In this document: in pieces, positions 7,101 to 10,100 of the stretch
Position numbering within the stretch: the first letter of the stretch is position 1
Layout: every line of letters begins with the position of its first letter
Program-made: the position numbers and the translations under genes
Notes under the pieces: generated by a model
What the model was told of the DNA's origin: nothing
What the model saw: only the letters and a program-made list of their open reading frames with translations
Databases searched by the model: none
Assembly: GCF_963506605.1 (NCBI RefSeq)
Contig: NC_083292.1
Location: 15,500,001 to 15,564,000 of the forward strand
Source of the DNA: Zootoca vivipara
Lineage: Eukaryota
Direction: 5' to 3'
Length of the DNA: 64,000 nt

Positions 7101-10100
7101 ATGACAGTGCGTTGCCAGTCTTTATCTTGCAATGTCTGTGGATCCAGCTGAAAAATGGAGAGTTATTAGTGAGTTAGCAATCAGGTGCAGAGACCAAAGC
7201 AGCTGTATTGCCCTACATGTTAATCTAATAATAAAATAATAATAATAATAATAATAACAACAACAACAACAATTTTATTATTTATACCCTGCCCATCTGG
7301 CTGGGTTTCCTCAGCCACTCTGGGCAGTACCCAACAGAGGACTAAAAACAGAATAAAACTTCAAACATTAAAAACTTCCCTAAAGAGGGCTGCCTTCAGA
7401 TGTCTTCTAAAAGTCAGATAGTTGTTTATTTCCTTGACATTTGTGGGAGGGCGTTCCACAGGGCACCACTACCGAAGAGGCCTTCTGCCTGGTTCCCTGT
7501 AACCAGCAGAAGGCCCTCGGAGCTGGACCTCAGTGTCCGGGCAGAACGATGGGGGTGGAGATGCTCCTTTGGTTATACTGGGCCAACGCCATTTAGGACT
7601 TTAAAGGTCAGCACCAACACTTTGAATTGTGCTCGGAAACATACTGGGAGCCAAATTTAATTAGGCTGGCATGCAAGTCACATATTTGCGGGATCAGGAG
7701 AATCCTGCTAGCTTGTCCTTTAAAACAAACAGCAAAATTATAGCCCTGAACAGTTCTAAACATGAAAGCCTTAGAACAGTCTTCCCCAGTCTGATACCCT
7801 CTAGCTGTTTTGTGCTATAGCTCCAAACTGCCCCTGAAGTCCAAAACTGCTGGAGGGCACCAGGTTGGGGAAGGCTGGTTTAGAAATACCTCAGTGCCCT
7901 TTCAGACCATTTGTCATCCGTCACCCTCTTCTGCATGAGAAAAAAGATTCCAGAATGTTTGACAACAAAAGTCATGAAAGCAACATAGTTTTGCAAAGCT
8001 AAGCAAATACATTCAAAACATACCTTTATCCTTATCACAAAAATTTCAAAACATTTGTCTTTTATTTTTGCACACAATGCACACGTCTGTCTGACAAGCC
8101 AGTGGAGGTTTTCTAGCAGAGACTGTGGTACCAATTCTGGTTTTCTGGGCTTGTTCATCACCCTCCCTTTGGCCTGCCCCCGATTCAGTTTTAGAGATTC
8201 AGGGCCAACTCCTCTCTCGGGTCTAGATGAAGTTGAATTATGCCACTCTGAATTATGCCACTCAGATGACTGCAAGTTGGTTGGGTGTGTTTGTATGATA
8301 ATGCTCTTCCACACATGAAAATTCCATAGGCCCAGAAAACTAGCATGCCAGGAAAACAGCTAGAAAGTTTTCAACATGCAAGGAATTTTTTTTTATATAT
8401 TTTTTTTGTAAAGGGAGGAGCATTCAACAATCTGAGGCCCCACTTGAACCCTGAAGTGGCACAGTCCAGGCACAGGTTCACCACTTCATCTGCTGTTTGT
8501 GAGAATTAGCCCTTTGCCTTCACCTGTTGAGACCCCCCCCCCCTGTTATTGCTAATAAGTGGAAGCAGTTTCTCTTTCCACACATACAGCACAAAGCAAT
8601 GGGAAGGCGGAGGGTGGGGAGAGAGAGAATGAATGAATGAGTGAGTGAGTGAATGAATGAATGAATGAATGAATGTAAGAGTAAAGCCAACCTTTCCTTG
8701 TAGCACTCTGCCACAGATTCGTGGCCACAGAGTGTGGCTTCTGCTATGTGTACATTTCTTCGGTAAATCCAGCAGAGACCTGCAGCTACAGCTGTAGCAG
8801 AAATGCCTGAAGATTCCCTGAGTGGTGGAGTGGGTCATCAGCAGCTCCCACATCTCTTACTGTGCTGTGTGCTCTTATTGTGCTCTGAAGCCCAGTGTTT
8901 GTCCCTCTAAGTCTACTCTTGCTCTGCCACGGGCTTTATGATGAAAATATTCTTCCTGGAGGACCTGCCCACTTCAGTTTGGGCAGCCAAGGTCCCAATG
9001 AGCTGTTTGTTTTTCCTTCCCAAAAGAGTTTATGGGAAGGGGAGGCAGAAGTTTCCCTCAACAAGATTTGTATTTTCCCAGAATTGAGAGGAAATGGCTT
9101 CTGAAGTACATTTGGTTTCCTTTGTGGAACTATTGAGGCTCACCTCCACCCCCATGCGACTGCTTTCTGGAGCTGACATGGATAGCCTTTCACAACACCA
9201 TTCTCACAGTGGGAACAGTCAACCCAGACTCAAGATGCAATTCATCTGCTGCTCATGCCCTGTACTTCTGTGCCATATAAAGTGCAACTCATGTCTAAAA
9301 CAAAGTAAGTCACTTTTGAGTTTTTATGAAAAACGAAAACCTGGGGTGGTGGTGAATCTTCTACATAAATAAGTGAAAATGCTGCCTGAGGTATTCTTTG
9401 GAGATTCAACAGGTAAAAGCTGTTTGGGATGAGGGCAGAGATTCCAAAGTTAGGCATGGAAGGAAATGGTACTTCTACACAACAAGTGCCACCTTGCATC
9501 CAACAGCAGAGCACAAATACAAGACTCAATGCAAGAATGCAAGACTCAATGTTTTTTTAACTACTGGTGGGAGAGTGCCATTCAATTCATTCTGAAATCA
9601 GTTTGGTATTTATAAGCTCTCCCAGCAAGCACTCAGAAAAAGTCCATCTCTTTTCCAAGAAGTCTTTCCCAGTTCAAAATGCTCGTGTATACGCGTAGAT
9701 GCCATCTAAATGTGCTTTAGAATCATAAAGTTGAAAGGGTCCCAAGGGTCATCTAGTCCAACCCCTCAATGCCATCTTGAGGGCACCAGGCTGCAGAAAG
9801 GAGAGGAAAAAGCATGCACACCACCCTGGGCTTCTTGGAATCATAGAATTGTTGAGTTAGAATGTACCCAAGGGTTATCTAGTCCAACCCCCTGCAATGC
9901 AGGAATTTCAACTAAAGCATCCATGCCAGATCCAGAGGAAAGGTGGAATATAAATGTAATAAATAAATAAAAGGATATGCTCTAACCCAGGCATCTCCAA
10001 ACTTCGGCCCTCCAGATGTTTTGGACTACAATTCTCATCTGCCCTAACCACTGGTCCTGTTAGCTAGGGATCATGCGAGTTGTTGGCCAAAACATCTGGA

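What the first reader, a model, noticed from the sequence alone, without database searches (positions are those of the whole stretch)
8692..8853. Hidden alternative first exon giving a RhoGAP-only BCR, paralogous to the short ABR isoform
Seen: ATG TGG GAG...AAG|gttggc, 54 codons in phase 0, which joins exon 17 (LDPQ...) in frame. Knowledge (recalled): a short ABR isoform starts MTDVLPQ...GARLWGRVRNKLLRNK and splices to the equivalent LDPQ exon. Here the second Met gives MTHS...[15 protein letters not shown], of similar length, with the same LW.R[VI]..[KR][LV]L..K end at the same splice position. Inference: the internal GAP-only promoter predates the BCR/ABR duplication and survives in lizard BCR, separating GAP from GEF activity.
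Basis: partly seen in the sequence, partly recalled or inferred. Interest (0 to 1): 0.7.

Follow-up and report, generated by a model that had tools for sequence, protein, structure and literature searches.

The report
Short GAP-only BCR isoform, ABR twin
An exon inside an intron of this lizard's BCR gene encodes the start of a short BCR protein that databases already list for other reptiles, birds and mammals, and it has a sister exon in the related gene ABR; it likely lets cells make BCR's Rac-switch-off part without its switch-on part.

Summary
The 54-codon frame at 8853-8692 (minus strand) ends at AAG|GT in phase 0 and continues in frame through the last seven BCR exons, giving 321 aa. That isoform is already annotated: Podarcis muralis XP_077776841.1 (48 of 54 exon residues identical), ten turtle and two bird records, mouse, rat and other mammals. 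This genome's ABR has the sister exon at the same intron position. Profile-profile comparison covers all 54 columns (probability 92.5, E 4.7e-7), and the two exon families stay apart on a tree, so an origin before the BCR/ABR duplication is likely, though no fish or shark BCR copy was seen. Corrections: the first Met, not the second, is the shared start; the exon is amniote-wide, not a lizard relic; the product keeps two C2 strands and the PDZ tail. No spliced joint was listed in 8 runs laid; contig ends in a relative fit it indirectly. Six paper searches found no study of this isoform. Function is untested.

The parts
8692..8853 (-). Coding part of the alternative first exon of BCR: 54 codons, ATG to donor, phase 0
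   Evidence: 48 of 54 identical to P0171 (Podarcis muralis XP_077776841.1)
8854..9300 (-). Probable 5' leader and internal promoter region; start site not fixed; no upstream ATG between 9110 and 8854, nine between 9366 and 9111; not a CpG island (CpG o/e 0.11-0.17)
   Evidence: contig cover to 8899 in X1, to 9300 in X3 and 9283 in X11. Leader status is inferred
8686..8691 (-). 5' splice site GTTGGC after AAG
   Evidence: contigs of X1 and X3 stop matching the genome exactly at 8692
7148..8691 (-). First intron of the short transcript (1544 nt), the 3' part of the 8260-nt intron of the long transcript
   Evidence: GT..AG ends; long-form joint 7147-15408 read in X20-X22
7088..7147 (-). Shared exon LDPQ... 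(exon 17 by the recalled human numbering); end of the C2 domain
5023..5132 (-). Shared exon 18: last predicted C2 strand and lead-in to the GAP domain
3198..3337 (-). Shared exon 19: RhoGAP start with the arginine finger (GIYRVSG; R140 of the short form)
2557..2691 (-). Shared exon 20, RhoGAP
1073..1178 (-). Shared exon 21, RhoGAP; exons 22 and 23 (ending STEV-stop) lie 64-705 nt beyond the window's left end, in L015
15408..15539 (-). Exon 16 of the long form (core of C2), the competing upstream partner of exon 17; absent from the short form

Best explanation
The 54-codon exon is the conserved first coding exon of a short BCR isoform, likely transcribed from an internal promoter in this intron and predicted to give a 321-aa Rac/Cdc42 GTPase-activating protein without BCR's coiled-coil, exon-1 region, DH-PH GEF and most of C2. 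Shown: the open frame through eight exons, orthologous exons joined to LDPQ in reptile, bird and mammal records, and a homologous exon at the same place in ABR. Inferred: (a) transcription from its own promoter (0.9); (b) origin in the common ancestor of BCR and ABR (0.8); (c) an active GAP, since R140 and N252 keep the spacing of ABR's catalytic R646/N758 (0.85); (d) the new N-terminus, with two predicted basic amphipathic helices (about 10-27 and 42-51), would place the GAP on membranes or on a partner in place of the lost PH and C2 domains, with the PDZ tail as second anchor (0.45). Net effect: a pure Rac/Cdc42 off-switch, controlled by its own promoter and not by the signals that act on full-length BCR.
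For: Frame, phases and splice sites: 966 nt, 321 codons plus stop, 310 of 317 whole codons identical to P0171. Orthologues: 13 of 15 listed members of one cluster begin with the exon (1 lizard, 2 birds, 10 turtles; 12 join LDPQ, one skips that exon); 7 of 8 and 7 of 9 members of two mammal clusters do too, and 4 of 12 of a third. Several lie as unbroken 311-321-aa frames on assembled contigs of 1.3-3.0 kb (P0137: 29 contigs), while the same frame spans 9.5 kb of this genome, so those contigs are spliced mRNA (inference). ABR sister exon: L012:6312-6482, phase 0, AAG|GT; short ABR records in turtles and teleosts, among them zebrafish NP_001093486.1. Homology: hhalign probability 92.5, E 4.7e-7, 54 of 54 columns; ungapped identity to the 54-aa fish ABR exon P0009 is 12 (lizard), 14 (turtle), 17 (pelican), 8 (mammal P0044) of 54, with 0, 0, 0 and 45 of 50000 shuffles as good; the BCR profile's best hit among 1626 ABR-locus frames is the ABR exon, E 3.3e-4. 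Tree of 19 exons: BCR one side of a branch, 100/99, not nested in amniote ABR. RNA-type contigs of organism A: X1 depth 30.1 over 8692-8899 against 2-4.5 for listed intronic pieces; X3 contig leaves the genome at 8692 with 28 further letters and its exon-17 contig stops at 7149, as expected if two upstream exons that share only 'AG' converge (inference). GAP specificity for Rac1/2 and Cdc42, not RhoA, and the R646A/N758A mutant: passages of PMC9559323.
Against: The 8692-7147 joint is listed in none of the 8 runs laid (93 joints were not shown, and the 28 letters were not printed). In three raw RNA runs under the species label of the best DNA holder (about 6% of each read), the long-form joint has 25, 18 and 23 reads and the exon has depth 0, 0.03 and 0; the tissue is unknown. 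X9 reads through the donor at depth 2.5; X11 and X14 do not cover the coding part. RNA status of X1, X3, X9, X11 and X14 is a guess. Between the window and X3 the exon has 6 amino-acid and 2 silent changes: no sign of strong constraint at that distance. The ABR profile does not rank the lizard exon among its top 4 of 2680 window frames. No BCR copy of the exon was seen in shark, amphibian or fish records, a weak test. Both structure models are of low confidence (pLDDT 50 and 37), so the helices are predictions. Hydrophobic moments of the last 13 residues are moderate (0.35-0.50) and had no control.
Confidence: 0.85

Rival explanations
1. The exon is mainly an internal cassette between exons 16 and 17 of full-length BCR, which breaks the C2 domain, and not a first exon.
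For: An AG stands right before the ATG and 162 nt keep the frame. Some gene models carry the exon or part of it internally: P0127, P0139, P0145 for BCR and P0237, P0241, P0245, P0247-P0249, P0011 for ABR.
Against: The sequence before the ATG is purine-rich, with no pyrimidine tract, and has an in-frame stop. Met1 is aligned across BCR and ABR. Most records start at the exon. Contigs run on from the exon into upstream intron sequence.
Confidence: 0.06
2. The transcript is real, but the exon's peptide matters little: it only provides a start codon or leader, and the working product is the GAP, perhaps started at the Met in exon 17 (250 aa).
For: 6 amino-acid against 2 silent changes between the window and X3; the exon is 48 of 54 identical to P0171 while the other exons are 262 of 263; 250-aa records starting at MNG exist (P0031, P0161); rodent records start at position 11.
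Against: 54 codons without a gap in 16 of 22 aligned BCR exons across lizards, turtles, birds and mammals, L42-W43 in all 22 and in all 14 ABR exons; the ABR motif LWGRVRSKLLRQK is the same in all 14 rows from teleosts to lizards.
Confidence: 0.12
3. The BCR and ABR exons are not descended from one exon of the ancestral gene: the BCR exon arose in the amniote stem by copying from ABR or by convergence on a basic amphipathic helix.
For: No BCR copy seen outside amniotes among the listed records. Pairwise identity is low, and BLASTP of the two lizard peptides fails. The tree is unrooted and flags long branches.
Against: Same intron, same phase, same length (54 codons in turtle and fish ABR too), similarity at both ends including M-x-E-[LV]-L-V-[ST]-D; BCR exons do not group with amniote ABR exons. 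The negative rests on the best 120 of 968 hits and on clusters of full-length proteins.
Confidence: 0.12
4. A chance open frame in an intron.
For: Short frame, non-consensus donor (GTTGGC), no reads in three same-label raw runs.
Against: Orthologues across amniotes joined to the same exon; profile hit at E 2.3e-13.
Confidence: 0.01

Closest known systems
Annotated short BCR isoforms: Podarcis muralis XP_077776841.1 (isoform X2, 321 aa), turtle isoforms X2-X4, Pelecanus XP_075575064.1, mouse A0A571BEM4, rat A0A8I6GJB7
   Same: Same exon, same junction to LDPQ, same length (321 aa; 311 in rodents).
   Different: These are database models; no functional study was found. The lacertid exon is the only one with P-R in place of [TASD]-H after the Trp, and it has 5-6 Cys.
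Short ABR isoform (zebrafish NP_001093486.1 isoform 2; turtle XP_005298277.2 and others; this genome L012:6312-6482)
   Same: First exon in the same intron, phase 0, 51-71 codons, ends in the LW..[VI]R..[LV]...K motif, joins LDPQ, product is C2 remnant + RhoGAP + PDZ tail.
   Different: The ABR motif is almost invariant from fish to lizards; the BCR exon evolves much faster. ABR copies are seen in teleosts and amniotes, BCR copies so far in amniotes only.
alpha1-chimaerin (short CHN1 isoform)
   Same: A Rac GAP gene with a short isoform that lacks the N-terminal module (passages of PMC6706170); N-chimaerin is the closest solved GAP structure (E 3e-35).
   Different: alpha1-chimaerin loses SH2 and keeps C1; here a GEF of opposite sign is lost and the lipid-binding domain is cut. 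No sequence link between the first exons was tested.

Membership tests
Short (first-exon-in-intron-16) BCR isoform of amniotes | Exon peptide orthologous to the annotated N-termini | tested here: met
   48/54 to Podarcis, 26/54 turtle, 21/54 pelican, 17/54 mammal, no gaps; profile E 2.3e-13
Short (first-exon-in-intron-16) BCR isoform of amniotes | Phase-0 donor and open frame through the last seven exons to STEV-stop | tested here: met
Short (first-exon-in-intron-16) BCR isoform of amniotes | Spliced transcript from the exon to exon 17 in this species | tested here: inconclusive
   No joint listed in 8 runs; 3 same-label raw runs lack cover; contig ends in organism A fit the joint
Short (first-exon-in-intron-16) BCR isoform of amniotes | Own transcription start in the intron | not testable with these tools
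   Contigs cannot show a start; cover reaches 9300; no CAGE data on hand
Paralogue of the short-ABR first exon | Same intron position and phase in both genes | tested here: met
Paralogue of the short-ABR first exon | Sequence homology beyond chance | tested here: met
   hhalign 92.5 / E 4.7e-7; reciprocal best in both introns; BLASTP pair and ABR-profile-to-lizard test negative
Paralogue of the short-ABR first exon | Present in both genes since before their duplication | tested here: inconclusive
   Tree fits it; no non-amniote BCR copy seen
RhoGAP (Bcr/Abr type) | Complete RhoGAP domain | tested here: met
   PF00620 residues 118-265 of P0171, profile 1-147/148, E 1.2e-48
RhoGAP (Bcr/Abr type) | Catalytic Arg and Asn | tested here: met
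   R140 in GIYRVSG aligns with chimaerin GLYRVSG; R140/N252 are 112 apart like ABR R646/N758 (sequence)
RhoGAP (Bcr/Abr type) | Measured GAP activity on Rac/Cdc42 for this isoform | not testable with these tools
   needs an assay
C2 domain | Complete domain in the short form | tested here: not met
   No C2 hit in P0171 or P0009; in P0017 the C2 match (2-80, profile 25-92/104) lies almost wholly upstream of the LDPQ exon

The most novel reading that the evidence does not exclude
BCR and ABR each carry an unstudied internal promoter, older than their duplication in early vertebrates, that makes a GEF-less Rac/Cdc42 GAP with its own conserved amphipathic targeting peptide. If it is active in mouse and human, part of what is credited to full-length Bcr/Abr would come from this form, alleles and rearrangements upstream of exon 17 would spare it, and BCR fusions that break after exon 17 could be transcribed from a second promoter.
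Probability: 0.35. Interest if true: 0.65.

Novelty: new member of a known kind. Interest (0 to 1): 0.4.

Why it matters
Bcr and Abr are textbook dual GEF-GAP proteins in synapse, immune and wound-repair biology (passages of PMC9707551, PMC8351735, PMC9559323). A conserved promoter that yields the GAP alone would change how knock-outs, knock-downs and antibodies are read, since all tools aimed 5' of exon 17 miss it. The sequence itself is no discovery: automated annotation already holds it in many amniotes. What was not found in the papers searched is any account of the isoform, or of the homology between the BCR and ABR first exons, which points to a conserved N-terminal motif (L42-W43 in all 36 aligned exons) that can be tested directly. 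Human status is untested here: the only primate BCR copy seen is a Saguinus gene model (P0086).

Tried and rejected
Word-indexed search with the 54-aa peptide: no candidate. phmmer of the peptide against 1.84 billion representatives: 1 hit, P0016, a five-fold repeat, taken as spurious. Own-genome search with the peptide: itself and 9 matches at E 0.35-3.4, none followed. BLASTP of the two lizard exons: nothing. Run search: no RNA holder listed on record; small shares not used as evidence. Raw runs X20-X22 are swamped by intronic repeats and do not cover the exon. Two AlphaFold jobs gave low-confidence models (20 rows, pLDDT 50; 59 rows, pLDDT 37); no fold search was run on them. ESM Atlas on the turtle N-terminus: best score 0.79, chance level. 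Pfam zinc-ribbon hit on P0171 18-38 (E 0.024, under the cut-off) rejected: the cysteines are not kept in turtles or mammals. GC-rich patches at 11.5-12.1 kb and 15.85-16.5 kb were considered as promoter CpG islands and rejected: both are dispersed repeats. Exon ends were partly wrong and were corrected. Second Met as start: rejected. Earlier scan notes: none. Four older papers were not held, so the design of the mouse null alleles and the original ABR cDNA reports could not be read; one search did not supply them. One search for an amphipathic alpha1-chimaerin N-terminus gave nothing relevant. No supplementary files were opened; isoform tables in CAGE or long-read papers could mention this isoform.

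Full report
What is in the sequence. BCR runs on the minus strand; its exons were mapped with the Podarcis long form and short form. Exon numbers follow the human gene from recall. The intron between the exon ending at 15408 and the LDPQ exon starting at 7147 is 8260 nt. Inside it, 8853-8692 is a 54-codon frame from ATG to AAG|GTTGGC. With the seven downstream exons it gives 966 nt, 321 codons and a stop, all splice sites AG/GT, and 310 of 317 whole codons identical to P0171. The last two exons lie just outside the window, in L015. By that identity the animal is a lacertid-like lizard. An in-frame TAA sits two codons before the ATG, the stretch before it has no pyrimidine tract, and no other ATG occurs between 9110 and 8854.

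The isoform is already annotated. A search with a BCR GAP exon returned 968 proteins, of which the best 120 were listed; 5 of the 120 carry a related peptide (P0040, P0044, P0057 as N-terminus joined to LDPQ; P0127 internally; P0086 with read-through). Their clusters held more: 13 of 15 listed members of the 23-member cluster of P0017 begin with the exon (Podarcis muralis XP_077776841.1, Pelecanus, Callipepla, ten turtle records; Callipepla skips exon 17); 7 of 8 members of the rodent cluster (mouse A0A571BEM4, rat A0A8I6GJB7) and 7 of 9 of a second mammal cluster do too, and 4 of 12 of a third. Ungapped identity of the lizard peptide is 48/54 to Podarcis, 26/54 to a turtle, 21/54 to pelican and 17/54 to a mammal. 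Several mammal records are unbroken frames on contigs of 1.3-3.0 kb, which I read as spliced mRNA because the frame spans 9.5 kb of genome here.

The ABR sister exon. ABR lies on another contig. Its corresponding intron is 23.6 kb and holds a 57-codon frame ending at AAG|GTGCGC in phase 0, 11 kb before the LDPQ exon. A search with it gave 13 proteins of 45 candidates, and cluster lists added turtle and teleost short isoforms, among them zebrafish NP_001093486.1.

Is the likeness real? BLASTP of the two lizard peptides finds nothing. Anchored at the donor, each is the other's best match in its intron (32 against 10 among 86 candidates; 32 against 17 among 257), and only the true exon reaches 32 among 2321 pooled candidates. 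With relatives the signal covers the whole exon: alignments of 22 BCR and 14 ABR exons match over 54 columns (hhalign probability 92.5, E 4.7e-7 for the single pair); pelican BCR and mormyrid ABR are both 54 aa and 17/54 identical without a gap; L42-W43 and the first Met line up. A profile of 20 non-lizard BCR exons ranks the ABR exon first among 1626 frames (E 3.3e-4), but a profile of 13 ABR exons does not rank the lizard BCR exon in its top 4 of 2680; among all proteins held it reaches turtle and bird BCR exons at E 6e-4 to 0.1, Podarcis at 0.17, and not the mammal exons. On an unrooted tree of 19 chosen exons the 10 BCR rows form one side of a long branch (100/99) and do not join the amniote ABR rows; the tool warns that long branches meet there. 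Same intron, phase, length and motifs at both ends make descent from one ancestral exon the simplest reading. The date is inferred: sharks have BCR, but no shark, amphibian or fish BCR record with the exon was seen among those listed, a weak negative because only 120 of 968 hits and mostly full-length clusters were examined.

RNA evidence. No listed holder is on record as RNA. Three raw RNA runs under the same species label as the best DNA holder (about 6% of each read) show the long-form joint (25, 18, 23 reads) and no cover of the exon (depth 0, 0.03, 0); their tissue is unknown. In organism A, a relative whose runs are guessed to be RNA, X1 has a 209-nt contig of depth 30.1 that ends exactly at 8692, against depths 2-4.5 for listed intronic pieces. 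X3 has a 398-nt contig that matches 9041-8692 and then has 28 letters that do not follow the intron, and its exon-17 contig stops at 7149, whereas X9, X11 and X14 reach 7150. With 31-letter words, 28 letters and a stop at 7149 are what two upstream exons sharing only 'AG' would leave. This is inference: the joint is listed in none of the 8 runs, and the 28 letters were not printed. X9 reads through the donor at depth 2.5; X11 covers 8867-9283 only; X14 has no cover. The six amino-acid differences of X3 are the six of P0171; there are 2 silent changes and no gap or stop in the coding part. Cover to 9300 leaves the start site open.

How it likely works. The product has the 54-aa peptide, about 50 residues that hold the last two predicted C2 strands, a full RhoGAP domain (118-265) and the STEV tail. 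The C2 match ends at about the exon 16/17 border, so the short form has no C2 fold. The catalytic Arg aligns with that of chimaerin, and R140/N252 keep the spacing of ABR R646/N758, whose change abolishes GAP activity (PMC9559323, passages). That paper also says the GAP acts on Rac1/2 and Cdc42, not RhoA, that ABR has a C-terminal PDZ-binding motif, and that minimal GAP domains need stimulation or membrane placement. A review says Bcr GAP activity is raised by Y177 phosphorylation and its GEF by BAI1 (PMC9707551, passages); both inputs lie in parts that the short form lacks (Y177 by recalled numbering). Both low-confidence models put helices at about 10-27 and 42-51. The peptides are basic (net +5 to +8 in BCR; +3 to +5 in the last 13 residues of both genes) with best 11-residue moments of 0.51-0.69 (no control). 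I therefore commit to a GAP that is placed by its own N-terminal helices and its PDZ tail and is regulated by promoter choice; the targeting step is the weakest (0.45).

What is in print. Six searches aimed at a short, GAP-only or alternatively promoted BCR/ABR isoform (listings with abstract starts) gave no paper on it. Passages read: PMC6505627 (no hit for 'isoform', 'promoter', 'intron 16'), PMC6706170, PMC9559323 (mentions a shorter ABR band and points to UniProt), PMC8351735, PMC9707551, PMC5470264 (Abr ranks third for start-site switching in developing mouse cerebellum, isoforms not named in the passages). Four older primary papers were not held, the library lacks most subscription journals, and no supplements were opened, so 'not found' is limited to these searches.

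Verdict. Observation confirmed; interpretation partly supported. The exon is real and amniote-wide, and already sits in automated annotation. Its homology to the ABR exon is well supported and was not found in print. Kind: an internal-promoter short RhoGAP isoform, as in ABR and chimaerin. Interest 0.4; 0.65 if the form proves active in mouse and human with its own targeting peptide.

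Noticed in passing
window 11488-12147: GC-rich dispersed repeat (57 matches in the genome, 21 other copies over most of its length at 79-88% identity; 40 of 959 candidates scored) that holds a decayed piece of the mitochondrial malonyl-CoA-ACP transacylase (MCAT) coding sequence at 11603-11797(-), E 8.8e-9 to 8csp chain 8. Looks like a gene fragment captured and spread by a mobile element; ends and element class not settled.
   Followed up: partly
window 15850-16520: Second GC-rich dispersed repeat (184 matches; 40 of 2546 candidates scored) built of nested inverted repeats with arms of 67-93 nt; it mimics a CpG island in intron 15.
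   Followed up: partly
window 8707/8706: A second in-frame GT (AGA|GTGCTA) 15 nt before the main donor matches the five-residue-shorter variants in a turtle (P0176) and mammals (P0257, P0260): a possibly conserved alternative donor.
   Followed up: partly
exon codon 11 (window 8823-8821): Turtles and mammals have Met at position 11, and rodent records start there (311 aa); lizards have Thr and birds Leu.
   Followed up: no
P0237, P0241, P0245, P0247-P0249 (turtle ABR): RefSeq turtle models splice the ABR short exon, with 15 extra upstream residues, into full-length ABR between exons 16 and 17: possible dual use as a cassette.
   Followed up: no
P0070, P0183, P0185, P0188, P0189 (carpet sharks): A different 51-residue insert between exons 16 and 17 of BCR, not matched by either exon profile.
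   Followed up: no
window 10770-11380: Decayed retroelement-like coding pieces (LINE-like by recall; C2H2 hit PF13894 E 0.0014, under the cut-off).
   Followed up: no
window 56686 and beyond: The most upstream BCR match in the window is residue 523 of the Podarcis long form; the large first exon lies outside the window.
   Followed up: no
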